This document shows, in pieces, positions 1-15,931 of a stretch of DNA of 23,441 nucleotides. The stretch lies in the sequence record PZ049722.1; one strand, written 5' to 3'. Both the position numbers and the translations under genes were made by a program. Source of the DNA: a phage. A model generated the notes under the pieces. That model saw nothing but the letters and a program-made list of their open reading frames with translations, was not told the DNA's origin and searched no databases. Position 1 is the stretch's first letter; each line of letters begins with the position of its first letter.

Positions 1-1147
1 TGATCAACCGACCACGCACGAGCGGGCGCTTATTTATGTGCAGGTGCGTGCTGGGCGCCGAGATGCGAAGACCCTCTGCGAGGCGCTGATCAGCGCGACC
101 AGAAGCGCGGCCGAGCACCAATCTTCTTGACGGCGCCCGCCCTTCATGAGCATGACCCACCCCGGCGGCGGCCGATCACCCTCGCGATGTTCTCCGACCT
201 GCCTTACCGCGCTGTCCATTGAGCTGATCATCAACAAGGTCGGCAACGCCCGCGCTGAAGGGGCCGGGTCGACCAGGCGCACAACATCGCTCGAGCGTGA
301 GTTCCGAAGCGGCTTGCCCCTCATGGACAAGCCCAGCAACCTGCGAGCAGATCGACATCTTAATGCTGGCTCGAGATCCAACACACACCACCGCCATCCA
401 CGACACCACCAGCGCACCCGCTACTGCGCTGCAAGGCATCCCGCCTCTGCAGCTGCGCATCGCGGCCGGCTGCCGAGACCTGCCGCGAGCTGGCTGATCG
501 CCCAGCCGGAGAAATGGACGCCCCCCGCCAAACGCGCGAGCCGTTCCGCCGCGCCGGAGCATGCATCGCCGACGGTGCGGGCCTGATGGTCGGTGACAAG
601 CGTGCGCCGATCGCCCCGCAACCCCCATGCGCGCTACGAGGAGAGATGCGCCCAGCTCCGTGCTGGTCGGCGAACGACGGTCGCTAGCATTACCACGTGG
701 TCCAGCGCGTTCATAAGGCATGACAACGGCTTCGCCTCAACCGGTGCTACACCTGCCGAGCTGACCGGCCAGCGGATCCGCTCCTGCTGCCGGAGAGCCA
801 GGCCGAGCAGACCAGCACAGACGTTGCACCCCAGCTCGCTGGATGCACCTGACCACCCTACCGCAGGCCGACAAGGTGGGAAGAGGCGCGCGCCACGCCG
901 ATTTCGGCGGCGAGATCGACCCCGTTCAAGTAACAGGCCGAATACCATGCTGCGGGCCTACCTGCCAACTGCCGAGAGCAGCGAAAGCCGCTCCGGCCTG
1001 GCCTCGGCGGAGCTGAAAGCCGCTGCAAATGCATCGAGCTGGCCTAGTCGCCCGCCCCTGGGCAGCGGCTGGACGCCGAGTCCGACTGGGGTTGCTCAAG
1101 GCCAAGGACCCCGACGGCGCCATGGAGGAGCCCCGCTCGACGCCTGA
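1..1147 (+). pseudogene. Decayed partial copy of the Mu-like transposase A gene (central to C-terminal part), several frameshifts
   Basis: ORF 146..586 contains LSIELIINKVGNARA and QRTRY, and ORF 593..1147 contains NTMLRAYLP, SRSGLAS.ELK, LGSGWTP and YPDGAMEE, all matching the 590-aa transposase at 9469..11241 but in different frames. Confidence 0.65.
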
Positions 1148-1313
1148 TCGTCGCCGAGCTCCAAGCCCCTGCATGCTCAGGCCCTGCCCCTGGTTCGGGC
1201 GGCTGCCGAAACTGTCTCAAGAAAGTGCTGGCCAGCGCGGGCAAGGCTGGCTCACCTGGGGCCAGGGCGGGTGAAGCTCAGCGGCAGAAGCCATCTGCCC
1301 AACTGATTACCTC

Positions 1314-2388
1314 ATGGCCAGCGGCCGAAGAGCATTTCCTGATGAACAGCCAGCCGGGGGGGGCAACACTGCGCCCCAACCAACAAGGTGCTGGAAGCTT
1401 CGATGCGGCTGTGCGCTGTGTTTGAAGAGAGGCAAGACCCTGCGCCAGCAAATGCGGCCGGCCCTCGCAACCCGGAAAACAAATCAAACGAAAACCTGCA
1501 CACCACAAGGCCAACCCCGGCTCCACCGGAGGTGCTGCGACCAGACACCCAAAGCGGCGTTCAACCTCGACCGCGACCCCTTCGACGACCTCGAGTTCGG
1601 CCGGATGAGATGCGTCCCTGAGCTCGATATCCGGCTAACATCTCCGTGCCGAAACACACTACGCGCCACCACGGCTCTCCTGGCCGGCTGGTGGGCGAGT
1701 CCGGCGCCGGAGCTGCGCCGGCGCCAGCCCGGCCAGCTGCCGCCTTGCAACCAGCGGTGATCGTCATCGAACCCTACGTGCTGGGCATGGAGGACCAACT
1801 CCTATAGGGAAGGACACGGAAGGCCACCCGCACGGACAGTCCGCCCGCCGCTGCTGGAACCCTTGCGAAAAGCTGAAATCCAGCCCCCCGAAGCCCTGCT
1901 TCTGCAAAAGATGTACGCCATGCTCAAAGCGTCACGGCGCAGGCTTTCGCCACGTGCTGATCATCGAAGAGGTGCACTCCAGCCTGCCCATCCCCACGCT
2001 CACGCACCTCAAGCGCATGCGTGACCAGCTCGAACACCTGGCTTCGACAATGCTGTCCATGTCCTCATCGGCCAGCCCAGCTGCTGATCAAACGAGCCCG
2101 CAAGGCGACGTGCGTCGAGGTGGCCCAGCCCATCGAGATTGCGCAACTGCAGCCCATCCTCACGTCGGTGACCTGGACTGCGCACCTGGCATTTTCGTTG
2201 CAAGCACGCCGGCAAGCAGCTCCGAGCTGATCGATGCCAGCGGCGTGCAGGCCATCATCGAACGCCTGGGCAGCTCGGGTAAAGTACGTGCCAGCCAGCT
2301 CCACCCGCTGGCCATCGGCAACATGTTCAACGCCGCCTCAACCTCGCCGCCGAAATCGGCGAAAGCCGCATCACCGCTGATGTTGTGA
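1314..2388 (+). pseudogene. Decayed copy of the MuB-like ATPase gene, frameshifted
   Basis: ORF 1314..1760 has AFNLDRDPFDDL and ORF 1954..2388 has LIIEE.HS.LPIPTL.HLKRMRDQLEH and LIDASGVQAIIERLGSSGK, matching the 390-aa protein at 8300..9472 with indels. Confidence 0.65.
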
Positions 2389-2402
2389 AGGGGGTGTGAG
2401 CC

Positions 2403-2828
2403 ATGGCCATCACCATCGAACAAATCATGGAGCAGGCTCAGGTGTACGCCTCGGCCTGGAGCCTGGTCGGCGGGCCGTTCGACCAGGGCAACCTGCTGCA
2501 GCAGGCCGAGCTGGAGAAGCGGTGCTGCTGGAGATGGTCACTGCCTTCGAGGACGAACCCATGCCGCAGGGGCCCAGGAAGCGCAGCTCGACCTGGCTAA
2601 GCCGCTGATCGAGTGGCACCAGCACCGCATTGGCAACCTCAGCAAGTTGCAGCAGGCGGTAGAGGGCACTGAGATCCGCCTCGGCGAGGCTGATGCCGAT
2701 CCCATCGTCCTGCAGGCGCGATGCTAAAAGGCTGGCGCTTCGCCTTGGCGATTGCCGAGCAGCAGTTCGAGAAGTTCCCGCTGTCCATCGAGCGCAAAGC
2801 TCCCACCAGCGACGAGGAGGATGACCAT
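2403..2828 (+). pseudogene. Frameshifted copy of the 141-aa early gene found intact at 7871..8296
   Basis: ORF 2403..2600 shares the first 39 residues (MAITIEQIMEQAQVYASAWSLVGGPFDQGNLLQQAELEK) with the 141-aa protein and then leaves frame; 1-bp deletions seen relative to the right arm. Confidence 0.6.
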
Positions 2829-3176
2829 GCGCGCTCCCAACGTCATCCCGCTCAGCGCCAGATCGCCGCTGAGATCTCCATCCAACACGCGCTGCCCATG
2901 TGCACCGTGCTGACCCCTGAACTGGCCGACAAGCTCCGCGCCCTCAACGACATGACCCGCCGCCTGCGCGCGGCGGGCGTGCGTATCGAGGCCGCATCCC
3001 CGCTCGACGGCAAGATCTTCATCAACGCCGAAGACTCCGACCAGCTCGCCGCATCGTTCCGCAGTGAGTGGCGCGGCGTGAGTTGGAGCACCAAAGGCGT
3101 CCACACCATCAACAGCGTCCGCCTCGGCGGCTGCCAAGTCTGCTGGCTTACGCCAGTGAAGGAGCAGGAGTCATGA
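2826..3176 (+). pseudogene. Frameshifted copy of the 118-aa early gene found intact at 7518..7874
   Basis: ORF 2721..3176 carries the C-terminal 100 residues of the 118-aa protein fused to the upstream frame; about two 1-bp deletions near 2815-2860. Confidence 0.6.
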
Positions 3177-3355
3177 GCCTCGAAGCACGCCTGCGCGAAG
3201 CGCTGGAGCTGCTCAAACGCAGCGCCGGCTACGCCTCGGCCTATCCGACCATCGGTGGCCACAAGCTCAACGACGAGATCTGCCGCTTCCGCGAGGCGGT
3301 ACAGGCCGAACTCGAAACCAACGCCCAACAAGCCGAGGAAGAAACCCATGGCTGA
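3173..3355 (+). CDS. Small hypothetical early protein (60 aa), duplicate of 7339..7521
   Basis: Internal ATG with GGAG-type RBS; identical to right-arm copy. Confidence 0.5.
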   Translation: MSLEARLREALELLKRSAGYASAYPTIGGHKLNDEICRFREAVQAELETNAQQAEEETHG

Positions 3356-3968
3356 GCAAATCGCAATCCCCGAAGGCTTCGTCAAGAATGCTGCCGGCCA
3401 TCTGGTGCCGGAACACCAGGTGCGCGAGCACGACAAGCTGCGCGACAGCGTCGCCCGCGAGCTGGCCAACCAGGCCGTGGCCATCAGCGAGGCGCTGGGC
3501 GCGTTCAAGGCTAAGGCCCTGGGCGATATCGCCGACCTGATCGCCATCTCGGCCGAGAAGTACCAGGTCAAGCTCGGCGGCAAGAAGGGCAACGTCTCGA
3601 TCGTCACCTACGACGGCCGCTACAAGATCGAGCGCGCCATGGCCGAGCGCATCACCTTCACCGAGGAGATCCTCGCGGCCAAGGAGCTGATCGACCAGTG
3701 CATCCGCAAATGGAGCGAAGGCGCCGACCAGCACCTGCGCATCCTGGTCGACCGCGCGTTCCGCGCCAACCGCCAGGGCCAGATCAAGACCGGCGACGTG
3801 CTCAGCCTGCTGCGCGTCGAGATCGAAGACCCCGACTGGCAGCGCGCGATGGAGGCCCTGAAGGACTCCATCCAGGTCAACGGCACCGCCGTATACATCC
3901 GCGTCTACCAGCGCGTCGGCAACACCGACCGTTACGAGCCCATCAGCCTCGACATTGCGAAGGTGTGA
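3348..3968 (+). CDS. Conserved phage early protein (206 aa, possibly DUF3164-like), duplicate of 6726..7346
   Basis: Identical protein on both arms; start MAEQIAIPEGF after RBS. Confidence 0.55.
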   Translation: MAEQIAIPEGFVKNAAGHLVPEHQVREHDKLRDSVARELANQAVAISEALGAFKAKALGDIADLIAISAEKYQVKLGGKKGNVSIVTYDGRYKIERAMAERITFTEEILAAKELIDQCIRKWSEGADQHLRILVDRAFRANRQGQIKTGDVLSLLRVEIEDPDWQRAMEALKDSIQVNGTAVYIRVYQRVGNTDRYEPISLDIAKV

Positions 3969-3970
3969 CC

Positions 3971-4678
3971 ATGGACCAGGATCGCATTCTCGAAAAGATC
4001 AAGAAGTGCATGGAGATGGCCAAGGGCAAGGGCTCGAATCCGAACGAGGCCGAAATCGCCCTGCGCCAGGCGCATAAGCTGATGGAGGCCTACAACCTGG
4101 AGATGGGCGACGTCCTGGCCAGCATGGCCGGTGAGGTCACCATCGAAGCCGGCTCGGATGGTACCCCACCCACCTGGCGTATCCGCCTGGCTCAGGTGTG
4201 CGCCCATGCGTTTGGCACGCGCATGATCATCACGCAGAAGCTCACGGACCACTTCGACGTTGTAGGCGCCTTCATCTTTGTGGGCTGCGCAGCGGCACCA
4301 GAGCTGAGCGGATACGCCTACCAAGTGCTGGAGCGGCAGCTGCAGAAGGCTCGACGTGAGTTCCTGCAGTCACCGAAGAACAAGCGCTGCAAGCGCTCAA
4401 CCAAGGTCGCGCGCGGCGATCACTTCGCTAACGGCTGGATTGATGCCGTGTACCTCAAGGTCGACCAGTTCGCTGGCGTTGACGACAACATCGCCGAAGC
4501 GATCGAAGCCTACATGGCGAAGCACCACGCCGACCTGGGCAAGCACGAAATGAAGCGCCGCAAGCTCAAAGCCCGCGATGAAGGTGCCGCCGAGGCCGGT
4601 TACCAGGCTGGCAAGAGCGCCCAACTGCACCACGGACTTGGCCACAAGCCCGTCGCCCGACTGACTCAGGGGGTGTGA
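3971..4678 (+). CDS. DUF2786-like phage protein (235 aa), duplicate of 6016..6723
   Basis: N-terminus MDQDRILEKIKKCMEMAKGKGSNPNEAEIALRQAHKLMEAYNLE resembles the DUF2786 signature; identical on both arms. Confidence 0.55.
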   Translation: MDQDRILEKIKKCMEMAKGKGSNPNEAEIALRQAHKLMEAYNLEMGDVLASMAGEVTIEAGSDGTPPTWRIRLAQVCAHAFGTRMIITQKLTDHFDVVGAFIFVGCAAAPELSGYAYQVLERQLQKARREFLQSPKNKRCKRSTKVARGDHFANGWIDAVYLKVDQFAGVDDNIAEAIEAYMAKHHADLGKHEMKRRKLKARDEGAAEAGYQAGKSAQLHHGLGHKPVARLTQGV

Positions 4679-4679
4679 G

Positions 4680-4904
4680 ATGCAAACCCTTGAATGCACC
4701 GTGAAGTACTACATGGGTGCCTACCAGACCAACACCGTGCGCAGCCAGCGCGCCAGCTGCAGCCACTCCGAGGACGAGGCCGTGCGCCACCTGGGCGTAA
4801 AGCTGTTCGGCGAGCAGCTCCACCACGTCGAGCGCATCGATCTCAAACCCAGCGATCAGCCGGGCATGAGCCGCTGGCTGATCGTTGGTCGGGAGGTGCA
4901 GTGA
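4680..4904 (+). CDS. Small hypothetical protein (74 aa), duplicate of 5790..6014
   Basis: Identical ORF on both arms; starts 2 nt after upstream stop. Confidence 0.45.
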   Translation: MQTLECTVKYYMGAYQTNTVRSQRASCSHSEDEAVRHLGVKLFGEQLHHVERIDLKPSDQPGMSRWLIVGREVQ

Positions 4905-5327
4905 TGGGCCATCCAATTTTCCAAGACGCCCCCTCAAGGGACATGACCAAGGCTCAGGAGCGCCAGGCCGAGCTAGATGCGCAGGTCGAAGCCTTCCTGG
5001 CCAAGGGCGGGGAGATCAAGGCCTTCGACAACTTCCGCCGTCCTGATCCAGAGTGGGCCCTGGCGCTCGAAGTCGATCAACCCCGAGCAGCAGAAGCCAG
5101 CTCAGGCTGCGCCCATCAAGGCGAAACCGGCCAAGCCCGCCGCTCCTGTGAAGGCAAAGCCGGTACCGGAGGTGCCAGCCGAACCGGTGGCGGTGGCTAC
5201 CATCGACCTCAGCGCTGAGCTGCGCGCCTTGCGCAAGCAGACTGCAGCCATCAACCGCCCGGCCTGGCGCGAGTTGAGGTCTTTCGAGGACTCGACGCCA
5301 GCAACGCGGCGCAGCAGCGCGCGATAG
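4904..5327 (+). pseudogene. Frameshifted copy of the 130-aa K/P/A-repeat protein encoded intact at 5395..5790
   Basis: Identical for 47 residues after MGHPIF, then leaves frame near 5041-5050 where the two arms differ by an indel; the proper frame continues in ORF 4977..5327. Confidence 0.6.
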
Positions 5328-5398
5328 CTGTCGTCATCCATGCCCAGTTGGCCCTTGGCGATGTGGATCTTGCTGAGTACGCCTTTCGAGATACTCAT
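5261..5398 (-). pseudogene. GemA-like (Mu gp16, DUF1018-like) gene, 5' fragment of about 46 codons cut by the inversion junction
   Basis: N-terminus MSISKGVLSKIHIAKGQLGMDDDSYRALLRRVAGVESSKDL fits the GemA family start; beyond codon 46 ORF 5102..5398 reads antisense to duplicated sequence. Confidence 0.6.
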
Positions 5399-5790
5399 GC
5401 GCGACCACCCATAGAGCAGCTCAGGCGATTAAGGCGGCGGTTGATGGCTGCAGTCTGCTTGCGCAAGGCGCGCAGCTCAGCACTGAGGTCGATGGTAGCC
5501 ACCACCACCGGTTCGGCTGGCACCTCCGGTACCGGCTTTGCCTTCACAGGAGCGGCGGGCTTGGCCGGTTTCGCCTTGATGGGCGCAGCCTGAGCTGGCT
5601 TCTGCTGCTCGGGGTTGATCGACTTCGAGCGCCAGGGCCCACTCTCGATAGGACGGCGGAAGTTGTCGAAGGCCTTGATCTCCCCGCCCTTGGCCAGGAA
5701 GGCTTCGACCTGCGCATCTAGCTCGGCCTGGCGCTCCTGAGCCTTGGTCATGTCCCTTGAGGGGGCGTCTTGGAAAATTGGATGGCCCAT
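5395..5790 (-). CDS. Hypothetical early protein (131 aa) with K/P/A-rich repeat tail
   Basis: Start MGHPIF overlaps upstream stop; contains PAQAAPIKAKPAKPAAPVKAKPVPEVPAEP. Confidence 0.5.
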   Translation of the reverse strand: MGHPIFQDAPSRDMTKAQERQAELDAQVEAFLAKGGEIKAFDNFRRPIESGPWRSKSINPEQQKPAQAAPIKAKPAKPAAPVKAKPVPEVPAEPVVVATIDLSAELRALRKQTAAINRRLNRLSCSMGGRA

Positions 5791-6014
5791 CACTGCACCT
5801 CCCGACCAACGATCAGCCAGCGGCTCATGCCCGGCTGATCGCTGGGTTTGAGATCGATGCGCTCGACGTGGTGGAGCTGCTCGCCGAACAGCTTTACGCC
5901 CAGGTGGCGCACGGCCTCGTCCTCGGAGTGGCTGCAGCTGGCGCGCTGGCTGCGCACGGTGTTGGTCTGGTAGGCACCCATGTAGTACTTCACGGTGCAT
6001 TCAAGGGTTTGCAT
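5790..6014 (-). CDS. Small hypothetical protein (74 aa)
   Basis: ORF in operon context, tight spacing to neighbours. Confidence 0.45.
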   Translation of the reverse strand: MQTLECTVKYYMGAYQTNTVRSQRASCSHSEDEAVRHLGVKLFGEQLHHVERIDLKPSDQPGMSRWLIVGREVQ

Positions 6015-6015
6015 C

Positions 6016-6723
6016 TCACACCCCCTGAGTCAGTCGGGCGACGGGCTTGTGGCCAAGTCCGTGGTGCAGTTGGGCGCTCTTGCCAGCCTGGTAACCGGCC
6101 TCGGCGGCACCTTCATCGCGGGCTTTGAGCTTGCGGCGCTTCATTTCGTGCTTGCCCAGGTCGGCGTGGTGCTTCGCCATGTAGGCTTCGATCGCTTCGG
6201 CGATGTTGTCGTCAACGCCAGCGAACTGGTCGACCTTGAGGTACACGGCATCAATCCAGCCGTTAGCGAAGTGATCGCCGCGCGCGACCTTGGTTGAGCG
6301 CTTGCAGCGCTTGTTCTTCGGTGACTGCAGGAACTCACGTCGAGCCTTCTGCAGCTGCCGCTCCAGCACTTGGTAGGCGTATCCGCTCAGCTCTGGTGCC
6401 GCTGCGCAGCCCACAAAGATGAAGGCGCCTACAACGTCGAAGTGGTCCGTGAGCTTCTGCGTGATGATCATGCGCGTGCCAAACGCATGGGCGCACACCT
6501 GAGCCAGGCGGATACGCCAGGTGGGTGGGGTACCATCCGAGCCGGCTTCGATGGTGACCTCACCGGCCATGCTGGCCAGGACGTCGCCCATCTCCAGGTT
6601 GTAGGCCTCCATCAGCTTATGCGCCTGGCGCAGGGCGATTTCGGCCTCGTTCGGATTCGAGCCCTTGCCCTTGGCCATCTCCATGCACTTCTTGATCTTT
6701 TCGAGAATGCGATCCTGGTCCAT
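6016..6723 (-). CDS. DUF2786-like phage protein (235 aa)
   Basis: Same protein as 3971..4678; internal start MDQDRILEK. Confidence 0.55.
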   Translation of the reverse strand: MDQDRILEKIKKCMEMAKGKGSNPNEAEIALRQAHKLMEAYNLEMGDVLASMAGEVTIEAGSDGTPPTWRIRLAQVCAHAFGTRMIITQKLTDHFDVVGAFIFVGCAAAPELSGYAYQVLERQLQKARREFLQSPKNKRCKRSTKVARGDHFANGWIDAVYLKVDQFAGVDDNIAEAIEAYMAKHHADLGKHEMKRRKLKARDEGAAEAGYQAGKSAQLHHGLGHKPVARLTQGV

Positions 6724-6725
6724 GG

Positions 6726-7346
6726 TCACACCTTCGCAATGTCGAGGCTGATGGGCTCGTAACGGTCGGTGTTGCCGACGCGCTGGTAGACGCGGATGTA
6801 TACGGCGGTGCCGTTGACCTGGATGGAGTCCTTCAGGGCCTCCATCGCGCGCTGCCAGTCGGGGTCTTCGATCTCGACGCGCAGCAGGCTGAGCACGTCG
6901 CCGGTCTTGATCTGGCCCTGGCGGTTGGCGCGGAACGCGCGGTCGACCAGGATGCGCAGGTGCTGGTCGGCGCCTTCGCTCCATTTGCGGATGCACTGGT
7001 CGATCAGCTCCTTGGCCGCGAGGATCTCCTCGGTGAAGGTGATGCGCTCGGCCATGGCGCGCTCGATCTTGTAGCGGCCGTCGTAGGTGACGATCGAGAC
7101 GTTGCCCTTCTTGCCGCCGAGCTTGACCTGGTACTTCTCGGCCGAGATGGCGATCAGGTCGGCGATATCGCCCAGGGCCTTAGCCTTGAACGCGCCCAGC
7201 GCCTCGCTGATGGCCACGGCCTGGTTGGCCAGCTCGCGGGCGACGCTGTCGCGCAGCTTGTCGTGCTCGCGCACCTGGTGTTCCGGCACCAGATGGCCGG
7301 CAGCATTCTTGACGAAGCCTTCGGGGATTGCGATTTGCTCAGCCAT
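6726..7346 (-). CDS. Conserved phage early protein (206 aa, possibly DUF3164-like)
   Basis: Same protein as 3348..3968. Confidence 0.55.
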   Translation of the reverse strand: MAEQIAIPEGFVKNAAGHLVPEHQVREHDKLRDSVARELANQAVAISEALGAFKAKALGDIADLIAISAEKYQVKLGGKKGNVSIVTYDGRYKIERAMAERITFTEEILAAKELIDQCIRKWSEGADQHLRILVDRAFRANRQGQIKTGDVLSLLRVEIEDPDWQRAMEALKDSIQVNGTAVYIRVYQRVGNTDRYEPISLDIAKV

Positions 7347-7521
7347 GGGTTTCTTCCTCGGCTTGTTGGGCGTTGGTTTCGAGTTCGGCCTGTACCGCCT
7401 CGCGGAAGCGGCAGATCTCGTCGTTGAGCTTGTGGCCACCGATGGTCGGATAGGCCGAGGCGTAGCCGGCGCTGCGTTTGAGCAGCTCCAGCGCTTCGCG
7501 CAGGCGTGCTTCGAGGCTCAT
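7339..7521 (-). CDS. Small hypothetical early protein (60 aa)
   Basis: Same protein as 3173..3355. Confidence 0.5.
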   Translation of the reverse strand: MSLEARLREALELLKRSAGYASAYPTIGGHKLNDEICRFREAVQAELETNAQQAEEETHG

Positions 7522-7874
7522 GACTCCTGCTCCTTCACTGGCGTAAGCCAGCAGACTTGGCAGCCGCCGAGGCGGACGCTGTTGATGGTGTGGACGCCTT
7601 TGGTGCTCCAACTCACGCCGCGCCACTCACTGCGGAACGATGCGGCGAGCTGGTCGGAGTCTTCGGCGTTGATGAAGATCTTGCCGTCGAGCGGGGATGC
7701 GGCCTCGATACGCACGCCCGCCGCGCGCAGGCGGCGGGTCATGTCGTTGAGGGCGCGGAGCTTGTCGGCCAGTTCAGGGGTCAGCACGGTGCACATGGGC
7801 AGCGCGTGTTGGATGGAGATCTCAGCGGCGATCTTGGCGCTGAGCGGGATGACGTTGGGAGCGCGCATGGTCAT
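7518..7874 (-). CDS. Hypothetical early protein (118 aa)
   Basis: Intact ORF in early operon; the left-arm copy is frameshifted. Confidence 0.5.
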   Translation of the reverse strand: MTMRAPNVIPLSAKIAAEISIQHALPMCTVLTPELADKLRALNDMTRRLRAAGVRIEAASPLDGKIFINAEDSDQLAASFRSEWRGVSWSTKGVHTINSVRLGGCQVCWLTPVKEQES

Positions 7875-8296
7875 TCCTCCTCGTCGCTGGTGGGAGCTTT
7901 GCGCTCGATGGACAGCGGGAACTTCTCGAACTGCTGCTCGGCAATCGCCAAGGCGAAGCGCCAGCCTTTTAGCATCGCGCCCTGCAGGACGATGGGATTG
8001 GCATCAGCCTCGCCGAGGCGGATCTCAGTGCCCTCTACCGCCTGCTGCAACTTGCTGAGGTTGCCAATGCGGTGCTGGTGCCACTCGATCAGCGGCTTAG
8101 CCAGGTCGAGCTGCGCTTCCTGGGCCCCTGCGGTATGGGCTTCGTCCTCGAAGGCAGTGACCATCTCCAGCAGCACCAGCTTCTCCAGCTCGGCCTGCTG
8201 CAGCAGGTTGCCCTGGTCGAACGGCCCGCCGACCAGGCTCCAGGCCGAGGCGTACACCTGAGCCTGCTCCATGATTTGTTCGATGGTGATGGCCAT
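7871..8296 (-). CDS. Hypothetical early protein (141 aa)
   Basis: Intact ORF directly downstream of the B gene; the left-arm copy is frameshifted. Confidence 0.5.
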   Translation of the reverse strand: MAITIEQIMEQAQVYASAWSLVGGPFDQGNLLQQAELEKLVLLEMVTAFEDEAHTAGAQEAQLDLAKPLIEWHQHRIGNLSKLQQAVEGTEIRLGEADANPIVLQGAMLKGWRFALAIAEQQFEKFPLSIERKAPTSDEEE

Positions 8297-8299
8297 GGC

Positions 8300-9472
8300 T
8301 CACACCCCCTTCACAACATCAGCGGTGATGCGGCTTTCGCCGATTTCGGCGGCGAGGTTGAGGGCGGCGTTGAACAGGTTGCCGATGGCCAGCGGGTAGA
8401 GCTGGCTGGCACCGTCCTTACCCGAGCTGCCCAGGCGTTCGATGATGGCCTGCACGCCGCTGGCATCGATCAGCTCGTCGAGCTGCTTGCCGGCGTGCTT
8501 GCAACGAAATGCCAGGTGCGCGTCCAGGTCACCGACGGTGATGGGCTGCAGTTGCGCAATCTCGATGCGCTGGGCCACCTCGCGCACGTCGCCGTTGCGC
8601 GGGCTGAGTTTGATCAGCAGCTCGGGCTGGCCGATGAGGATGATGGACAGCAGTTTGTCGAAGCCGTGTTCGAGCTGGTCACGCATGCGCTTGAGGTGCT
8701 TGAGCGTGGGGATGGGCAGCGAGTGCGCCTCTTCGATGATCAGCACATGGCGGAAGCCTGCGCCGTGGCTGGCTTTGAGCGTGGCGTGCATCTGCGCGAA
8801 GCGGGCTTCGGGGCTGGATTTGGCTTTCTCCAGCGGCGCCACAGCGGCCATCACAGACTCGGCAATGTGGGTGGCCTTCAGGGATTTGCCCTTGGTGTCG
8901 TTGTCCTCCATGCCCAGCACGTAGGGTTCGATGACGATCACCGGCTCATTGCGCAGGCGGTGCGCCAGGTCGCGGCGCAGCGTGCTTTTGCCGGCGCCGG
9001 ACTCGCCCACCACGGCCAGGAAGCCATCATGGCGCGCGGTCTGGTACATGCTCTCGCGGATGTAGCGGATATCGGGGCTCAGGTACATCTCATCGGCCGA
9101 CTTGAGGTCGTCGAAGGGGTCGCGGTGCAGGTTGAACGCCCGCTTGGTGTCTGGTCGCAGCACTTGTTTAGCCATTAGCATGTCGGGGCACTCCTGGGTT
9201 TCGTGATTGTTTTCCGGGGTTGCAGGGGCCTGCGCGTTGGCGCGCGCAGGCTCCATCTCTTCAAACGCGGCGCGCACAGCGTCGAACTCCGCGCCTTGTT
9301 GCATCAGGTACTCAGTGATGCCCCAGGCCAGCTGGTTCATCGGGATGCTCTTGGGCCACTGGCCGTGGTTGATCAGTTGGGCGATGGCTGCCGGGCTGAG
9401 CTTCACCGCCCTGGCCAGGTCGGCCTGGCCCTTGCCCACGCTGGCCAGCACTTGCTTGAGACGTTTCATCAC
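8300..9472 (-). CDS. Mu B-like transposition ATPase / target DNA activator (390 aa)
   Basis: Walker A GESGAGKST, N-terminal HTH-like region, sits directly downstream of and overlapping the transposase gene. Confidence 0.8.
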   Translation of the reverse strand: MMKRLKQVLASVGKGQADLARAVKLSPAAIAQLINHGQWPKSIPMNQLAWGITEYLMQQGAEFDAVRAAFEEMEPARANAQAPATPENNHETQECPDMLMAKQVLRPDTKRAFNLHRDPFDDLKSADEMYLSPDIRYIRESMYQTARHDGFLAVVGESGAGKSTLRRDLAHRLRNEPVIVIEPYVLGMEDNDTKGKSLKATHIAESVMAAVAPLEKAKSSPEARFAQMHATLKASHGAGFRHVLIIEEAHSLPIPTLKHLKRMRDQLEHGFDKLLSIILIGQPELLIKLSPRNGDVREVAQRIEIAQLQPITVGDLDAHLAFRCKHAGKQLDELIDASGVQAIIERLGSSGKDGASQLYPLAIGNLFNAALNLAAEIGESRITADVVKGV

Positions 9473-11241
9473 TCACCCCCAACCAGGCGCAGGCCTGGGC
9501 GTGCGGGCGCTTGCAGCTGGGCGACGATGGCGTCGAGCTGCTCCTCCATGGCGCCATCGGGGTAGTTGGCCTTGAGCCATTCCATCGACTCGGGCGTCCA
9601 GCCGCTGCCCAGGCGCGCGCGCAGCGCCTTGGCCAGCTCGATGCGGTTGAGCGGCTTCAGCTCCACCGAGGCCAGGCCGGAGCGGCTTTCCAGCTCTATA
9701 CCGCGCTTGGGCAGGTAGGCCGGCAGCATGGTATTGGCCTGTTCCTTGAACGGGTCGATCTCGCCGCCGAATGGCGTGGCGCGCGCCTTCTTGGCCTTCT
9801 CGGCAGCCTCGATACTGTCGGTGCCAGTGGCGAGCTGGTCCAACGTCTTCTTGGTCTGCTCGGCCTGGCTCTCCGGCAGCGAGCGGATGCCCTCGCCGAT
9901 CACTCGGCGGGTAGCACCGTTGGCGGCGAAGCCGTTGTCATCCTTGTCGACGCGCTCGACCACGTGGTAATGCTCGCGACCGTCTTCGCCGACCAGCACG
10001 AGCTGGGCGCTCTCCTGGTCGCGCCATGGGTTGCGGGTGATCAGCACACTGTCGCCGACCATCAGGCCCGGCACGTCGGCGATGCAGTACTCGGCGCCGC
10101 GGAACGGCACGCGCAGCTTGGCGGTGACCTTGCGCTTCTCCGGCTGGGCGATCGCCAGCTCGCGGCAGATCTCGGCGGCCGGCGCGATGCGCAGCTGCTC
10201 AGGGCGGATCAGCATCCAGGCGCCGTAGCGGGTGCGCTGGTGGCGGGTGTGGATGGCGGTGGCGTTGTAGTGCCGCATCCAGCGCCCGGCCAGGGCGTTG
10301 ATCTGCTCCAGGGTGCTGGGCTTGTCCATCAGGCGCAAGCCGCTCTCGAACTCACGCTCGACGATGTTGTGCGCCTGCTCGACCTGGCCCTTGGCGCGGG
10401 CGTTGCCGACCTTGTTGATGATCAGCTCGATGGACAGCGCATGGCACAGGTTGCGGAACATCGCAGAGGTCATGGCCGCACCGGGGTCGGTCATGATCAT
10501 GAAGGGCGCACCGTGGAATGGATCGTGCTCGCCACGTTTCTGCATCGCGCTGATCAGCACCTCGCAGAGGTTCTTCGCACTCTCGGCGCCCAGCACGTAC
10601 TGCACATAAATAGTGCCGCTGGTGTGGTCGGTGATCACGTAGCGCCACAGGCGCTGCTTCTCGATGCGCTTGAGATTCTCGGGCTTGCCGTCGTAGAACT
10701 CGGCCTTGTTCATGGCGCGGGCGCCGTCGTCGGCCAAGTAGAATTGGGTCGAGATCGAGGCGTCGATCTGCCAGACGTGGTTCGGGTGCAGGCTGACCAG
10801 CTCCACGGCCGGCGCCGGGCGCAGCACCTGATCCGGGTGCAGGCCGTAGGCGCGCAGGGCACGGGCGATGGCATCGAGCGACAGCGGGCGGATCTCGCCG
10901 GTGGCGCCGTCGATGATCTCGGCGCGGATCTGCCCATTGCTGCGCAGGCGCTCCACGGCGCGCTCCAGGGTGCTGAGTTGTTTATCGTTGTCGCGGATGG
11001 ACTGAATCAGCACGGCGCTGATCAGCTCCGCCTCATGCCGCTCCAGAGCCGAGGTGCCGGCATCGCTGCGACGTTTACGGGGAGTGGTCACGGTGACCTC
11101 CTTGAGCTTGCGGTAAACGGTTGCGAGGGTGATGCCCATGTCCGTTGCTGCCGCCCTGCACAGGGCGGTTTTGCTGCCGCGCGGCGCCTGCTCGATGTCT
11201 CGAGCCAGGGCTACCAGGCGTTGGGTCATCACTGCACTCAT
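9469..11241 (-). CDS. Mu A-like DDE transposase (590 aa)
   Basis: Size, N-terminal DNA-binding region, core motifs HVWQIDAS and MIMTDPGAAMTS typical of Mu/B3/D3112 transposases, followed by a B-like ATPase. Confidence 0.85.
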   Translation of the reverse strand: MSAVMTQRLVALARDIEQAPRGSKTALCRAAATDMGITLATVYRKLKEVTVTTPRKRRSDAGTSALERHEAELISAVLIQSIRDNDKQLSTLERAVERLRSNGQIRAEIIDGATGEIRPLSLDAIARALRAYGLHPDQVLRPAPAVELVSLHPNHVWQIDASISTQFYLADDGARAMNKAEFYDGKPENLKRIEKQRLWRYVITDHTSGTIYVQYVLGAESAKNLCEVLISAMQKRGEHDPFHGAPFMIMTDPGAAMTSAMFRNLCHALSIELIINKVGNARAKGQVEQAHNIVEREFESGLRLMDKPSTLEQINALAGRWMRHYNATAIHTRHQRTRYGAWMLIRPEQLRIAPAAEICRELAIAQPEKRKVTAKLRVPFRGAEYCIADVPGLMVGDSVLITRNPWRDQESAQLVLVGEDGREHYHVVERVDKDDNGFAANGATRRVIGEGIRSLPESQAEQTKKTLDQLATGTDSIEAAEKAKKARATPFGGEIDPFKEQANTMLPAYLPKRGIELESRSGLASVELKPLNRIELAKALRARLGSGWTPESMEWLKANYPDGAMEEQLDAIVAQLQAPARPGLRLVGGE

Positions 11242-11244
11242 GGG

Positions 11245-12192
11245 TCAGGCTCCCTGCTGCTGGCTGGCCAGCGCGGCGGCGACTTCCTCGTCGGCGCCAT
11301 CGCGCAGCCAGGCCGGCACTACCGTGGCCACGGGCGTGGCCTCGATGCCGTACTCCGCGCGGATCTCCAGCAGCGCTTGCTCCACCTGGGCCAGCAGGCC
11401 GGCGGCAAACACACGCTGGTCGGCGCCCTCGTGCTGCATCAGCTGGTGAATGGCCGGGTACAGCGCGCCGCTGATAGCCGCCTCGGCGGCGCCGGCCTTG
11501 GCGGTGGCCTCCAGGCGCAGTTCCTGCAGTTGCTCGTCCAGCGGCTTGACCTCTACCACTGGCTTTTTGGCGAGCTGGGTGGACAGCTCGTTGATCTTGG
11601 CGTCCTTGTCGGCCATCACGCGGCCCTGGGCGGTTTTGTCCTCGCGGGCGTCGCGCAGGGCTTTGCGTAGCTCCTTGACGGACATGGTGGCCACGTCGTC
11701 GAGGCTCAGCTCGCCGGTCTGGCCAGTGAGTTCCAGCTCCTGGATCTCTTCGTCGTCCAGGACGAGCATCTCGAACAGCTTGGATTGGTTGCCGATGGCC
11801 TTGGCCATGGCTGCGTTGCTGCCGAGAGAGGCGAATTTAGTGGCGGACTGGATGAACCTTTTGGCTACGCTCCACTCGATACCCAGCGCATCTAGTCGGT
11901 CAATAAAATTGCCGTGCCCGCATGCCTTCCTGAGCGTATATAGGCCGCGACCGACCTCCAGGCACGCTTCGACACTGCGGCGCATATTGGCAGTGATATC
12001 GCGTTGGATCAGATCCGGGTCGGTGCTGTCGGCTGGCAACAGGTAGCCGACCAGTGCGGCAGCCTCGCGCACGTCGGCTTCATGCTCGGCGCTGAGCGTG
12101 GCCACCTGGTGCTGGCGGGCCAGCAGGGTTTCGCTCTGCTGTTGATCGTCTGCGGCCAGCTCGATGGTGGCGTTGGGTTTACGAGCCATCAC
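11245..12192 (-). CDS. Hypothetical early protein (315 aa), acidic and coiled-coil rich; possibly DUF3102-like
   Basis: Long ORF with high GC3 directly upstream of the transposase; family assignment is tentative. Confidence 0.5.
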   Translation of the reverse strand: MMARKPNATIELAADDQQQSETLLARQHQVATLSAEHEADVREAAALVGYLLPADSTDPDLIQRDITANMRRSVEACLEVGRGLYTLRKACGHGNFIDRLDALGIEWSVAKRFIQSATKFASLGSNAAMAKAIGNQSKLFEMLVLDDEEIQELELTGQTGELSLDDVATMSVKELRKALRDAREDKTAQGRVMADKDAKINELSTQLAKKPVVEVKPLDEQLQELRLEATAKAGAAEAAISGALYPAIHQLMQHEGADQRVFAAGLLAQVEQALLEIRAEYGIEATPVATVVPAWLRDGADEEVAAALASQQQGA

Positions 12193-12470
12193 GCAGCCCT
12201 CCGCGCAGCATGGCCAGCAAGCCGCAGCAGGCGCTCGATCGCCTCGGTGCGGTTGCCATTGGCCTCGACCAGGGCATTGCGGAACTCGTCGGCGCCACGG
12301 CGGCAGCCGTAGTAGTAGGCGTCGAACTCCAGGCTGCCCTGTGGGTAGTTGACGGTGGTGGGCTCACCCTCGATGCGCAGCTTGAGCGCGGCGCAGAGCC
12401 CCTCGACATAGACGCTGCTGTGGCGATCGCCACCGCGTAGCAGGTGCTGGGCCAGTTTTTGGTAGTTCAT
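12189..12470 (-). CDS. Hypothetical early protein (93 aa)
   Basis: ORF overlapping the downstream start, operon context. Confidence 0.4.
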   Translation of the reverse strand: MNYQKLAQHLLRGGDRHSSVYVEGLCAALKLRIEGEPTTVNYPQGSLEFDAYYYGCRRGADEFRNALVEANGNRTEAIERLLRLAGHAARRAA

Positions 12471-12486
12471 CGTGGTGCTCCTGTTG

Positions 12487-12786
12487 TTAATGGGCGCTGA
12501 TGCGCGCCTGGATTTCAGTGATACGGGCCTGGCCGCGCTGCAGCTCTTCGGCGGTGGCCATGGCGTACTTCAGAAACGCGATGCTTGGGGCGAAGCGGCC
12601 GGTGTCGAGGCGCGTGGCGAAGCCGGCCTCGATCAGGGTGTCCATGTAGCGGGTGATGTTGGCCGGGCTCTCGCCCAGGCCCTTGGCCAGCTCGGTGTTG
12701 CTCAGACCCGTGAGGGTGTGGCCACGCAGCGCGTTGAGTACGCGCAGCACGCGCAGGGCGCTGTCGTTGGTGCGTTTGGTGGTCAT
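12487..12786 (-). CDS. Small winged-helix/HTH DNA-binding protein (99 aa)
   Basis: LRVLRVLNALRGHTLTGLSNTELAKGLGESPANITRYMDTLIEAGF resembles an IclR/MarR-type HTH. Confidence 0.5.
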   Translation of the reverse strand: MTTKRTNDSALRVLRVLNALRGHTLTGLSNTELAKGLGESPANITRYMDTLIEAGFATRLDTGRFAPSIAFLKYAMATAEELQRGQARITEIQARISAH

Positions 12787-13058
12787 GCGCTGCGCTCCAT
12801 CGGTACGACGACCAGGGCGCCGGATTGGTTGATGCCGGGTTGGCCACCGAGGGCCGTCGCCAACTGCTCGTGCAGGCTCATGGCGTCTTCACGCCAGCCT
12901 TCGGCGTTCTCCTCCATGCGGGCCAGGTCGGCGCGCAGGCGGGCGTTCTCTTCGTCCAGGCGTACGACCTCCTGGCAGAGCTGCTCCAGGGCCTGTGCGT
13001 CCAGGCGTGCCAGCAGCGTGCGGATCTCAATGGCCTTACTCATCGTCAGCCACTCCAA
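12783..13058 (-). CDS. Small coiled-coil protein (about 86-91 aa)
   Basis: ORF with heptad-like leucine and charged pattern; start may be the internal MSKAIEIR. Confidence 0.4.
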   Translation of the reverse strand: MEWLTMSKAIEIRTLLARLDAQALEQLCQEVVRLDEENARLRADLARMEENAEGWREDAMSLHEQLATALGGQPGINQSGALVVVPMERSA

Positions 13059-13563
13059 AGTCGAGTTGAGGGGTTTGCGCCTGGGCGACGTTGCCGTGGT
13101 GCCAGGCGAGGGATTCGAGACCGGCGCGGATGGCGTCCAGGGTCTGCTCGGCGGTTTGCTTGCCGTCGTAGAAGGCCATCAGCGCGCCGGTGGTGTTGTG
13201 CAGCACGCCCTGCAGCTGCTGCAGGTCGCTGGCGTTGCAGGCCTTGCCCACGGGGATGTCCACCAACAGCTTGCCGTGGGCGGCAGCCAGGTAACGGGTG
13301 ATCAGGGGCAGGCCGCAGGCTTTCTCCAATGGCAGCACCATGGTCAGCGGCAGGCGGCCATTGCCCATCCACTTGTAGAGCGAGCTGGCGTTGTTCTGGC
13401 ACAGATGGTCTGTGGCAAGCCGCTCGATCCCGCGGTTATGGCGCTGCAATGCATGCTCGGCGCAGCCGCTCATAGCCTCAGCGGGCGAGCGCGGTACCCA
13501 GTGTTTCCAATTGCGGCGGGTCATTGGATGGGGCTCCTTTGGGCCGTCTGTTGCGGCTTCCAA
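13036..13563 (-). CDS. Hypothetical early-region protein (175 aa), possible regulatory protein
   Basis: High-GC3 ORF that starts next to a divergent intergenic region. Confidence 0.5.
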   Translation of the reverse strand: MEAATDGPKEPHPMTRRNWKHWVPRSPAEAMSGCAEHALQRHNRGIERLATDHLCQNNASSLYKWMGNGRLPLTMVLPLEKACGLPLITRYLAAAHGKLLVDIPVGKACNASDLQQLQGVLHNTTGALMAFYDGKQTAEQTLDAIRAGLESLAWHHGNVAQAQTPQLDFGVADDE

Positions 13564-13647
13564 TCAAAAACTCTGTTTCACCCTTGGCAATGTCGTTACC
13601 AACGGGCCAGTCTGTTGGGGTACATTCACCAACGCGGAGAGCCCGCC

Positions 13648-13968
13648 ATGGCTACTGAGAATCAGGTTTCGGAACAAATCCGCCGCGAGGTTGCGGCTGC
13701 AACAGCGGAGCTTCGGCAGAAGCTGGATCAACAGGACGAGTGGATGAATGGCCTGTTACTGGCGCTTGAGGATCTGATGCAGGCGCTACTACGGGCGAAT
13801 CCTGAGATGGTTGAGCCTGCGATTGCGGACTGGCAGAAAGCGGCTGAGCACTACGAGCTGGCGACTCAAGGCCTGTACCCGGATGAATCACCGGAGCGTC
13901 TTGAGCCACGGAAGATGCTGTACCGGATGCTGAACGCGACAGGCGCGCTGCAGCACCGGCAGGGGTGA
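13648..13968 (+). CDS. Hypothetical small helical protein (106 aa), antisense to the early operon, atypical codon usage
   Basis: Reading frame with GC3 about 70 percent and rare codons (TTA, CTA, ACA); the antisense frame there has GC3 about 40 percent; ATG at 13648. Confidence 0.5.
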   Translation: MATENQVSEQIRREVAAATAELRQKLDQQDEWMNGLLLALEDLMQALLRANPEMVEPAIADWQKAAEHYELATQGLYPDESPERLEPRKMLYRMLNATGALQHRQG

Positions 13969-14293
13969 TCAGGCACTTGCCGTTGGCGCGAGTGGCAGCG
14001 GCCAGGATGGCGGCAACGGTTGCTGGGGCGTCTTGAACCTGCAGGCGGTCACCAATGATGCGCCCAGCGCCAATCAGCATCAGGCGATCAACCAGGCGGC
14101 GGGTGCCTTCGGTAGCCGGGGTGCGGTCGACGCAGACGCTCAGCTTGGCTTGAGCATCGGCCAGGTGCCAGGCGATGGCGCATTCGTCACCGGGGCCACA
14201 GGCGATAACGGCGTCGAGCGCGGCGCGCCAGGCGTCCATTGGGTGGGGGATCAGCTCGATCTCTTCGAGCGCGATTTGCGGTTGGTCGGTCAT
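13652..14293 (-). CDS. Early gene after ner (gene X); coding signal holds only from 14293 to about 13969 and there is no stop until 13652
   Basis: ATG at 14293 with GAGGG RBS; high GC3 for the first 109 codons, then a low-complexity S/P/A/Q tail antisense to the 13648..13968 gene. Confidence 0.4.
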   Translation of the reverse strand: MTDQPQIALEEIELIPHPMDAWRAALDAVIACGPGDECAIAWHLADAQAKLSVCVDRTPATEGTRRLVDRLMLIGAGRIIGDRLQVQDAPATVAAILAAATRANGKCLITPAGAAARLSRSASGTASSVAQDAPVIHPGTGLESPARSAQPLSASPQSQAQPSQDSPVVAPASDPQAPVTGHSSTRPVDPASAEAPLLQPQPRGGFVPKPDSQ

Positions 14294-14325
14294 GGCTGTG
14301 ACCCTCTGGCGGCGGTTGCGTTGGG

Positions 14326-14535: not shown

Positions 14536-14589
14536 GGCGGTGGCTCCTTTTGGGTTGCTGAATGATGTTTGTGTTTTGTTGGGCTGATG

Positions 14590-15073: not shown

Positions 15074-15095
15074 CAGCGCGTATGGGGATTAGGGA

Positions 15096-15833: not shown

Positions 15834-15844
15834 GGCGACGAACG

Positions 15845-15890: not shown

Positions 15891-15931
15891 CACATGCCAG
15901 CCACAACGGCGGCGAATCAAGGAGAGAAGCC

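What the first reader, a model, noticed from the sequence alone, without database searches (positions are those of the whole stretch)
1..2900. Left-arm copy decays with distance from the junction, mostly by indels
From about 2870 to 5260 the arms differ by only a few bases (one indel near 5041-5050, one substitution near 5190). From 2870 leftward 1-bp deletions appear about every 100 bp, and in the A and B copies (1..2400) changes are dense, leaving only frameshifted fragments. Real pseudogene decay is usually substitution-dominated and not graded like this. It could be an old duplication homogenised near the axis by gene conversion, or raw-read-like error at a thinly supported contig end.
Basis: partly seen in the sequence, partly recalled or inferred. 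Interest (0 to 1): 0.6.

Follow-up and report, generated by a model that had tools for sequence, protein, structure and literature searches.

The report
Fold-back assembly artefact with noisy end
The "decaying" left copy is not an ageing pseudogene: it is a fold-back (snap-back) chimeric extension at the end of a long-read contig of a B3-like transposable Pseudomonas phage, and its sequence quality falls in steps to raw-read level, so it should be trimmed.

Summary
Window 1-5259 is the reverse complement of 5436-10637. Differences fall in five steps: 0.18 events/bp (1-1940, a flat plateau), 0.07, 0.013, zero (2861-5040) and 0.018 beside the junction.

All differences are left-arm specific noise. 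There are 154 indel events against 202 substitutions in 2 kb, with insertions outnumbering deletions 2:1. Substitutions are spread evenly over codon positions. An outgroup agrees with the right arm at 85% of differing sites, and its matches to the left arm are at chance level. A true orthologue at the same identity (82.7%) has no gaps in 2339 nt and a strong third-position bias.

The right arm carries intact B3/PM105-like early genes (transposase A, B, DUF3164). The 176-nt "loop" is authentic phage sequence, the 5' end of gemA. Relatives continue through gemA, whereas the window turns back exactly at a 12-nt inverted repeat (GGCGGTTGATGG). That is the signature of 3'-end snap-back priming, as in MDA-type inverted chimeras.

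Verdict: an assembly and sequencing artefact, with a small chance that the fold-back molecule formed in vivo. The gene-conversion and pseudogene reading is rejected. Reads were not available, so thin coverage is inferred.

The parts
1..1940 (.). Outer left arm: noisy copy of right arm about 8700-10637 (transposase A and B genes). It shows 0.181 difference events per bp as a flat plateau, with the profile of a single raw read.
   Evidence: There are 202 substitutions, 104 insertions and 50 deletions in 1-2000; codon positions are 62/72/68; the outgroup matches the right arm at 171 of 202 sites.
1941..2340 (.). Intermediate left-arm zone, 0.0725 events per bp.
   Evidence: segmentation; events listed.
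2341..2860 (.). Nearly polished left-arm zone, 0.0135 events per bp. It has five 1-bp deletions and two transitions. Counting the deletion at 2335 just outside this zone, four of the six deletions left of 2860 are homopolymer undercalls.
   Evidence: The relative L021 shows 7 gaps against the left arm versus 2 against the right arm, and L096 shows 2 versus 0.
2861..5040 (.). Left-arm zone identical to right arm 5654-7833.
   Evidence: (I1: 2185 nt, 100%).
5041..5259 (.). Left-arm zone next to the junction, with 4 left-specific differences (5045 insertion, 5049, 5191, 5213).
   Evidence: The relative L018 agrees with the right arm at all four.
5248..5259 (.). Junction microhomology CCATCAACCGCC. 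These 12 nt belong both to the authentic gemA sequence and to the end of the left arm, and they are complementary to 5436-5447.
   Evidence: Alignments of relatives to the loop plus right arm run to 5248, and those to the left arm run to 5259. L085, L086, L087 and L089 read ...GGGCGGTTGATGG then TCGAGCTGG.
5260..5435 (-). The 'loop': authentic, single-copy phage sequence. It comprises the stop codon of the 201-aa gene, the intergenic region and the first ~50 codons of a gemA-like gene (ATG at about 5398, reading leftward).
   Evidence: (PM105 GemA residues 1-50 at 5398-5249).
5436..5447 (.). Partner arm GGCGGTTGATGG of the 12-nt inverted repeat, where the snap-back 3' end primed.
   Evidence: It is one of only three loci with a perfect inverted repeat of at least 12 nt (loop up to 500 nt) in the 18.2 kb of authentic sequence.
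5436..10637 (-). Right arm: the authentic copy, with intact early genes of a B3/PM105-like transposable phage.
   Evidence: These are A 9469-11241, full length and 79% identical to PM105; B 8300-9472, 75%; DUF3164 6726-7439; and a DUF2786/DUF7168 protein 6016-6996.
9469..11241 (-). Transposase A (rve integrase core), intact.
8300..9472 (-). Transposition ATPase B (AAA_22), intact.

Best explanation
Positions 1 to about 5247 are not part of the phage genome. A DNA strand of a B3-like transposable Pseudomonas phage, with its 3' end about 0.9-1.3 kb from the phage left end inside gemA, folded back. It paired through a 12-nt inverted repeat (GGCGGTTGATGG / CCATCAACCGCC, 176 nt apart) and a polymerase extended it along its own strand, giving a hairpin (palindromic) molecule. 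This most likely happened in vitro, during phi29/MDA amplification or end-repair and fill-in of a long-read library. Long reads through such molecules out-reach the genuine reads, which stop at the nearby linear genome end, so the assembler extended the contig with them. Support for the extension falls with distance from the turn, because fewer fold-back reads reach that far, and polishing reads prefer the correct right arm once the copy is divergent. The consensus therefore drops in steps from perfect, to about 1% homopolymer-type deletions, to about 7%, to a single-read plateau of about 18% error. The 'decay' is sequencing noise, not evolution. What is shown: the palindrome geometry, the error profile, the polarity of the differences, the microhomology, and the normal continuation in relatives. 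What is inferred: low read support, the in-vitro origin, and the platform.
For: Geometry: the arms are 1-5259 and 5436-10637 with a 176-nt loop. The error profile is stepwise, with rates of 0.181, 0.0725, 0.0135, 0 and 0.018 events per bp, breaks at 1940, 2340, 2860 and 5040, and a flat plateau in the outer 1.9 kb. Error type: in 1-2000 there are 202 substitutions, 104 insertion and 50 deletion events. A genuine orthologue of the same genes at 82.7% identity (L024) has 0 gaps in 2339 nt and a second orthologue has one in-frame 9-nt gap. Codon positions of left-versus-right substitutions are 62/72/68, against 108/73/234 for the orthologue. Polarity: the outgroup equals the right arm at 171 of 202 sites, the left arm at 17 and neither at 14, which is about chance expectation, and all indels lie on the left arm. 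Near-axis differences are also left-derived. Right-arm genes are full length and left-arm A and B are frame-hopping fragments. Junction: relatives identical to the loop continue into gemA, while the window switches to the reverse complement of 5448 onward after a shared 12-mer. That site is one of only three perfect inverted repeats of at least 12 nt in 18.2 kb. No adapter-like sequence is present at the turn. A net -1 frameshift in the portal gene 200 nt from the other window end, within an otherwise intact 18 kb, fits consensus quality dropping at both ends. Literature: 85% of MDA chimeras are inverted joins of nearby segments primed at 2-21 nt of complementarity (PMC1855051). Palindromic WGA reads damage long-read assemblies (10.1101/173872). 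ONT ligation libraries give 0.18-7.33% inverted-repeat chimeric reads (PMC13141652). ONT base-calling accuracy collapses on the second arm of inverted duplicates (PMC7229812).
Against: No reads, coverage or quality values were available, so thin support is inferred rather than observed. I could not find the source contig or its metadata, so the platform, any use of MDA, and whether position 1 is a true contig end are all unknown. The outer-zone profile (about 10% substitutions, insertions exceeding deletions) does not match one platform cleanly: the substitution share is high for PacBio CLR, and the insertion excess is atypical for ONT. A 12-nt inverted-repeat-mediated fold-back is equally the signature of in-vivo template switching, so the in-vitro origin of the junction is the weaker part of the claim.
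Confidence: 0.8

Rival explanations
1. The fold-back molecule is real and formed in vivo, by template switching or snap-back at the 12-bp inverted repeat during replication of the transposable phage (an ODIRA-like, hairpin-capped or palindromic by-product). It is rare in the sample, so the far part of the second arm is covered by only one or a few noisy reads. The junction would be biological, but the 'decay' would still be sequencing noise.
For: The junction lies exactly at a pre-existing interrupted inverted repeat of 12 nt with a 176-nt spacer. In yeast, in-vivo inverted junctions form at interrupted inverted repeats of 2-14 bp (PMC10766183). The phage replicates intensively by transposition (A and B genes).
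Against: The same junction signature is produced in vitro in large numbers (PMC1855051, PMC13141652). The fold-back product lacks the left end, including the rest of gemA, mor and attL/pac, so it could be neither packaged nor transposed. The noise implies very low abundance. None of the ~90 related loci fetched shows such a fold-back. The 176-nt spacing is larger than the 40-80 bp favoured in the ODIRA data.
Confidence: 0.12
2. The palindrome is a pure read-concatenation artefact: a missed SMRTbell adapter, or an ONT template strand followed at once by its complement and called as one read. No physical fold-back molecule exists.
For: These are the commonest sources of palindromic long reads (10.1101/173872 discussion; PMC13141652 proposes two consecutive reads merged into one).
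Against: Concatenation turns at the physical fragment end. It should give a symmetric palindrome, with or without adapter, and no reason for microhomology. Here 176 nt of authentic single-copy sequence lie between the arms, and the switch point is a perfect 12-nt complementarity found at only three loci in 18 kb. No adapter-like sequence is present (adapter sequences were taken from memory).
Confidence: 0.05
3. This is a genuine old inverted duplication of the phage early region. The left copy is a decaying pseudogene set, and the part near the axis has been homogenised by gene conversion.
For: Divergence rises away from the axis, and the left-arm genes are broken.
Against: The indel-to-substitution ratio is 0.76-1.3 with a 2:1 insertion bias, whereas real divergence of these genes has 0-1 gaps per 2.3 kb, and bacterial pseudogenes are generally deletion-biased (my own knowledge). 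All changes are derived on the left arm, and the right arm shows none. The profile is stepwise with a flat plateau. The junction cuts gemA and removes the phage left end, which relatives retain. A palindrome with 2.4 kb of 99.8% identical arms around a 176-nt spacer is expected to be unstable in bacteria (my own knowledge).
Confidence: 0.02
4. The outer left arm comes from a different, diverged co-occurring phage strain that was chimerically joined in a metagenome assembly.
For: Related phages at about 83% identity exist in public data.
Against: A real variant would show third-codon bias, intact frames and few gaps. The left arm shows none of these, and its matches to the outgroup at sites where it differs from the right arm are at chance level: 17 observed against about 12 expected.
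Confidence: 0.01

Closest known systems
Inverted chimeras of multiple displacement amplification (Lasken & Stockwell 2007, PMC1855051)
   Same: Both join two nearby segments of the same molecule in inverted orientation with a short intervening stretch. Both show the 3' end priming at a short complementary sequence: 2-21 nt in that study, 12 nt here. Both are intramolecular, with the joined segments less than 10 kb apart.
   Different: Whether this sample was amplified is unknown. Here the product appears inside an assembled contig rather than in a single read.
Palindromic long reads and the assemblies they corrupt (Pacasus, 10.1101/173872; Mol Ecol Resour 2026, PMC13265396)
   Same: A read-scale palindrome is incorporated into a long-read assembly, producing an artificial duplication.
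   Different: Those papers describe read sets and assembly statistics. The step-wise fall in quality along the artificial arm is my own inference from this contig.
Nanopore inverted-repeat chimeric reads and poor base calling on inverted duplicates (PMC13141652; Spealman et al. 2020, PMC7229812)
   Same: Ligation libraries yield 0.18-7.33% inverted-repeat chimeras, and the second arm of an inverted duplicate is called with many errors and missed bases.
   Different: In Spealman et al. the low quality starts at the junction, whereas here the junction-proximal 2.2 kb is perfect after consensus. The noisy arm here is 57 nt longer than its partner (net insertions), not shorter. The platform is unknown.
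In-vivo fold-back inversion and ODIRA template switching at short interrupted inverted repeats (PMC10766183)
   Same: Both have a junction at a pre-existing short interrupted inverted repeat, giving a hairpin-capped or palindromic product.
   Different: ODIRA is described in yeast chromosomes, with preferred spacers of 40-80 bp. There is no evidence here of replication, selection or abundance of the product.
Hairpin-telomere (protelomerase) phages such as N15 (my own knowledge)
   Same: Long reads that run around a covalently closed end also produce contig-end palindromes.
   Different: This is a transposable B3-like phage whose ends are transposon ends. The turn lies inside the gemA coding sequence, 0.9-1.3 kb from the end. 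It has a 176-nt non-palindromic loop, and relatives read straight through.
Beetrevirus / B3-like transposable Pseudomonas phages (PM105, NC_028667)
   Same: The authentic part of the window is syntenic with PM105 from gemA through transposase B and A, the regulators, the lysis genes and TerL, at 42-90% amino-acid identity.
   Different: The portal resembles that of D3112-like Fc02 (83%) rather than PM105 (30%), so the genome is a mosaic. About 2 kb of lower-GC ORFs lie between the repressor and the lysis genes.

Membership tests
Snap-back / MDA-type inverted chimera carried into a long-read assembly | Two segments of the same locus are joined in inverted orientation, separated by a short stretch of the genome. 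| tested here: met
   Arms 1-5259 and 5436-10637 with 176 nt between them.
Snap-back / MDA-type inverted chimera carried into a long-read assembly | There is short complementarity (microhomology) at the switch point. | tested here: met
   The 12-nt GGCGGTTGATGG is shared by authentic gemA and by the right-arm partner. Alignments of relatives overlap on 5248-5259, and only three such inverted repeats occur in 18.2 kb.
Snap-back / MDA-type inverted chimera carried into a long-read assembly | The junction is absent from the real genome, and related genomes read through. | tested here: met
   L085-L087, L089, L093, L020, L094 and L018 continue into gemA, and L093 continues for 2336 nt more. PM105 has gemA, mor and the genome end beyond this point.
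Snap-back / MDA-type inverted chimera carried into a long-read assembly | The junction has minority read support and coverage drops along the artificial arm. | not testable with these tools
   No reads or coverage were available. This is inferred from the stepwise error profile.
Snap-back / MDA-type inverted chimera carried into a long-read assembly | The library was amplified with phi29, or was end-repaired and ligated. | not testable with these tools
   The source contig and its metadata were not found.
Read-concatenation palindrome (missed SMRTbell adapter, or ONT template followed by complement) | The turn is symmetric at the fragment end, with or without adapter sequence, and needs no microhomology. 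| tested here: not met
   There is a 176-nt authentic single-copy loop and a 12-nt microhomology, and no adapter-like match.
Genuine duplicated genes undergoing pseudogene decay | Change is substitution-dominated with few, deletion-biased indels, and divergence is roughly uniform along the duplicate. | tested here: not met
   There are 154 indel events against 202 substitutions, insertions exceed deletions 2:1, and rates differ from 0 to 0.18 per bp between adjacent segments.
Genuine duplicated genes undergoing pseudogene decay | Both copies accumulate their own changes after the duplication. | tested here: not met
   The outgroup sides with the right arm at 85% of differing sites and with the left arm only at chance level. 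All gaps are on the left arm.
Hairpin-telomere linear phage or plasmid end | A perfect palindrome lies at the genome terminus, and the replicon encodes a protelomerase. | tested here: not met
   The turn lies inside the gemA coding sequence with a non-palindromic loop. Gene content is that of a transposable phage (A, B, DUF3164, GemA), and no protelomerase was seen among the proteins scanned.
B3-like (Beetrevirus-like) transposable phage, for the authentic part of the window | An early operon with gemA, DUF3164, transposition ATPase B and DDE transposase A, followed by regulators, lysis genes, terminase and portal in PM105 order. | tested here: met
   A is 79%, B 75% and TerL 84% identical to PM105.

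The most novel reading that the evidence does not exclude
The fold-back could be a genuine in-vivo product. In this reading, during replicative transposition of the B3-like phage, a nascent strand switched template at the 12-bp interrupted inverted repeat spanning the gemA start. That would generate a hairpin-capped or palindromic early-region molecule (transposase A/B dosage doubled, left end lost), which was present at low abundance and was caught by a few long reads. The noisy outer arm would still be sequencing error.
Probability: 0.1. Interest if true: 0.35.

Novelty: not a real feature. Interest (0 to 1): 0.08.

Why it matters
The main consequence is for data hygiene. Left in place, positions 1 to about 5247 would be annotated as a second, degenerate transposase A/B locus, as a 5-kb inverted repeat, or as "pseudogenes with unusual indel-driven decay". 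They would also inflate the genome length while hiding that the true left end is missing: the rest of gemA, mor and attL, about 0.9-1.3 kb.

The case is also a clean worked example of how to recognise such artefacts from sequence alone:
- a stepwise error profile ending in a raw-read plateau;
- no codon-position bias in the substitutions;
- every difference derived on one arm only;
- a junction at a short inverted repeat inside a gene that relatives read through.

It also shows that ts/tv does not help at this level of divergence. There is no new biology unless the fold-back molecule proves to exist in vivo.

Tried and rejected
(1) I tried to find the source contig or its reads. The 31-nt junction sequence is absent from IMG/VR and from the JGI metagenomes. 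The exact proteins A, DUF3164 and TerL are not on record.

It is uninformative: 0.79-0.9 for left versus right arm and 0.87 for a true orthologue.

(3) I looked at the homopolymer context of outer-zone indels to identify the platform. There is no enrichment (42 of 104 insertions and 14 of 50 deletions lie next to the same base, close to chance). Only the last six 1-bp deletions show a homopolymer bias (4 of 6). The platform remains undetermined.

(4) I searched for adapter sequences at the turn (SMRTbell, ONT, Illumina; sequences taken from memory). Nothing above background was found.

(5) I considered a slight excess of outgroup-equals-left-arm sites in the MAFFT three-way alignment (44 against about 27 expected) as a hint of a real variant. 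It disappeared with a gap-tolerant pairwise alignment (17 against about 12), so I attribute it to alignment forcing.

(6) I considered and rejected the hairpin-telomere, transposon-end/auto-integration and divergent-strain readings. The junction is not at a phage end, and the loop is gemA coding sequence.

(7) Pfam and PADLOC scans of the low-GC ORFs at 15096-16860 found nothing.
Full report
WHAT IS THERE. The window opens with a large inverted repeat. Positions 1-5259 are the reverse complement of 5436-10637, with 176 nt (5260-5435) between the arms. I aligned the two arms and binned the differences. Identity is 100% from 2861 to 5040 and 99% to 90% from 2860 down to 2000. In 1-2000 it is 75-83%, with 202 substitutions, 104 insertion events and 50 deletion events.
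- an indel at 5045 and a substitution at 5191, to which I add substitutions at 5049 and 5213;
- single-base deletions at 2859, 2820, 2714, 2557, 2520 and 2335;
- transposase A and B copies reduced to frame-hopping fragments.

SHAPE OF THE DECAY. The profile is not a smooth gradient. A Poisson segmentation of difference events prefers five segments by BIC:

| Segment | Events per bp |
|---|---|
| 1-1940 | 0.181 |
| 1941-2340 | 0.0725 |
| 2341-2860 | 0.0135 |
| 2861-5040 | 0 |
| 5041-5259 | 0.018 |

Within the outer 1.9 kb the rate is flat. If anything it is slightly lower towards position 1 (correlation of event density with position +0.18). A staircase ending in a plateau is what discrete read-depth steps down to one read would give. 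A time-dependent or conversion-tract process would not produce it.

WHICH ARM IS AUTHENTIC. The right arm and everything to its right encode an intact B3/PM105-like (Beetrevirus-like) transposable Pseudomonas phage. On the minus strand, in order:
- a gp13-like protein;
- DDE transposase A (9469-11241; 79% identical to PM105 over its full length);
- transposition ATPase B (8300-9472; 75%);
- small early genes;
- DUF3164 (6726-7439);
- a DUF2786/DUF7168 protein (6016-6996);
- a 201-aa protein (5395-6000);
- the first ~50 codons of gemA (5398 down to 5249).

Further right come the regulators, repressor, lysis genes, TerS, TerL and portal. The left arm matches PM105 A and B only as fragments in different frames, at 29-42% identity.

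IS THE LEFT ARM EVOLVING OR NOISY? Four tests bear on this.

1. Natural control. A genuine orthologue of the same A and B genes at nearly the same identity (L024, 82.7%) differs from the right arm by 415 substitutions and no gaps in 2339 nt. A second orthologue (L051) has one in-frame 9-nt gap. The left arm has 80-213 gap events, depending on scoring.
2. Codon position. Left-versus-right substitutions fall 62/72/68 on codon positions 1/2/3. Orthologue substitutions fall 108/73/234.
3. Polarity. At 202 sites where the arms differ, the outgroup has the right-arm base at 171, the left-arm base at 17 and neither at 14. This is what random noise on a copy of the right arm predicts, given 18% outgroup divergence. 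All indels are on the left arm. The near-axis differences and the 1-bp deletions are left-derived too: L018, L021 and L096 align to the right arm with fewer gaps.
4. Indel bias. Insertions outnumber deletions 2:1 and the left arm is 57 nt longer than its partner. Bacterial pseudogenes tend to be deletion-biased (my own knowledge).

The alignment itself looks like a raw long read against its reference.

THE JUNCTION. The 176-nt "loop" is authentic single-copy phage DNA. It matches relatives at 94-100% and contains the stop codon of the 201-aa gene, the intergenic region and the gemA start. Four IMG/VR relatives (L085, L086, L087, L089) are identical to the window across this gemA segment. They read ...CAGGCCGGGCGGTTGATGG-TCGAGCTGGAGCGC..., whereas the window reads ...CAGGCCGGGCGGTTGATGG-CTGCAGTCTGC..., which is the reverse complement of 5448 onward.

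Alignments of relatives to the right arm plus loop all end at 5248. Those to the left arm all end at 5259. So a perfect 12-nt sequence, GGCGGTTGATGG (minus strand 5259-5248, identical to plus strand 5436-5447), is shared by both sides of the switch. In the 18.2 kb of authentic sequence only three loci have a perfect inverted repeat of at least 12 nt with a loop of up to 500 nt, so the coincidence is not chance. The inverted repeat is not conserved: relatives carry one arm or the other with mismatches. It is therefore incidental rather than a functional element.

MECHANISM (inferred). A minus-strand 3' end in gemA paired with the complementary 12-mer 176 nt upstream on the same strand and was extended. 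Any unpaired 3' tail would first have been trimmed by a proofreading polymerase. The result is a hairpin whose second arm re-copies the early region.

- This matches the inverted chimeras of phi29 amplification: 85% are inverted joins of nearby segments, primed on 2-21 nt of complementarity (PMC1855051).
- Palindromic reads of this kind are known to corrupt PacBio and ONT assemblies (10.1101/173872; PMC13265396).
- Ligation-based ONT libraries contain 0.18-7.33% inverted-repeat chimeras (PMC13141652).
- ONT base calling deteriorates on the second arm of inverted duplicates (PMC7229812).

The turn lies only 0.9-1.3 kb from the phage's left end. In PM105, gemA and mor occupy the first 1049 nt, and in L087 the contig ends 1450 nt from the reference point. 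Genuine reads stop there, so a fold-back read is the longest available extension. That would explain why the assembler followed it and why the true terminal segment is missing.

A simple read concatenation (a missed SMRTbell adapter, or an ONT template strand followed by its complement) is unlikely. It predicts a symmetric turn at a fragment end with no microhomology, and no adapter-like sequence is present.

WHAT REMAINS OPEN. No reads or metadata could be found. Low support, the platform and the in-vitro origin are therefore inferences. The error spectrum (about 10% substitutions, insertions exceeding deletions) fits no single platform cleanly.

The same junction signature arises in vivo by template switching at short interrupted inverted repeats (PMC10766183). 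I give about 10-12% to a real but rare fold-back molecule. Even then the "decay" is noise.

A net -1 frameshift in the portal gene 200 nt from the right window end, within an otherwise intact 18 kb, fits consensus quality falling at both ends of the contig.

VERDICT. This is not a real genomic feature. Positions 1 to about 5247 should be trimmed, and the contig should be regarded as a partial B3-like phage genome that lacks its left ~1 kb. Interest is low.

Noticed in passing
window 23236-23242 (portal gene 22124-23441+): There is a net -1 frameshift in the portal gene about 200 nt from the right end of the window. Fc02 portal residues 1-370 align in one frame up to 23236, and residues 373-416 align in another frame from 23242. 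The ORF stops at 23260, although the homologous sequence continues. This is the only broken gene I saw in the 18 kb of authentic sequence, so it is probably a consensus error near the other contig end.
   Followed up: partly
window 14847-14878: A perfect 32-nt palindrome with no spacer (AGTCAAATAGCGCGAC|GTCGCGCTATTTGACT) lies inside the HTH repressor-like ORF 14636-15073, which is 63% identical to the PM105 repressor. It could be an operator-like site embedded in coding sequence. It was not investigated.
   Followed up: no
window 15847-15878: A perfect 15-bp stem with a 2-nt loop (ACATTGTTCCCATTG ca CAATGGGAACAATGT) lies 14 nt after the stop codon of ORF 15096-15833 and has no T-run after it. 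It sits exactly 1000 nt from the palindrome at 14847, which I take to be coincidence.
   Followed up: no
window 15096-16860: A lower-GC segment (55-60%, against about 65% elsewhere) lies between the repressor and the lysis cassette. Its ORFs (15096-15833, 15932-16270, 16267-16860) have no Pfam or PADLOC match, and only a weak PHROG lipoprotein-like C-terminus appears in the first one. PM105 has different genes at this position, so this looks like a moron/accessory region.
   Followed up: partly
window 20457-23441 versus 5260-20456: The genome is a mosaic. The early region, the lysis genes and TerL resemble PM105 (Beetrevirus; TerL 84%). The portal is only 30% identical to that of PM105 but 83% identical to that of the D3112-like phage Fc02.
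   Followed up: partly
window 12472-13968 (+): A 498-aa ORF with no family match lies antisense to three well-conserved minus-strand genes (PM105 gp14, gp15 and gp16 homologues at 12490-13524). It is almost certainly a spurious high-GC antisense ORF.
   Followed up: partly
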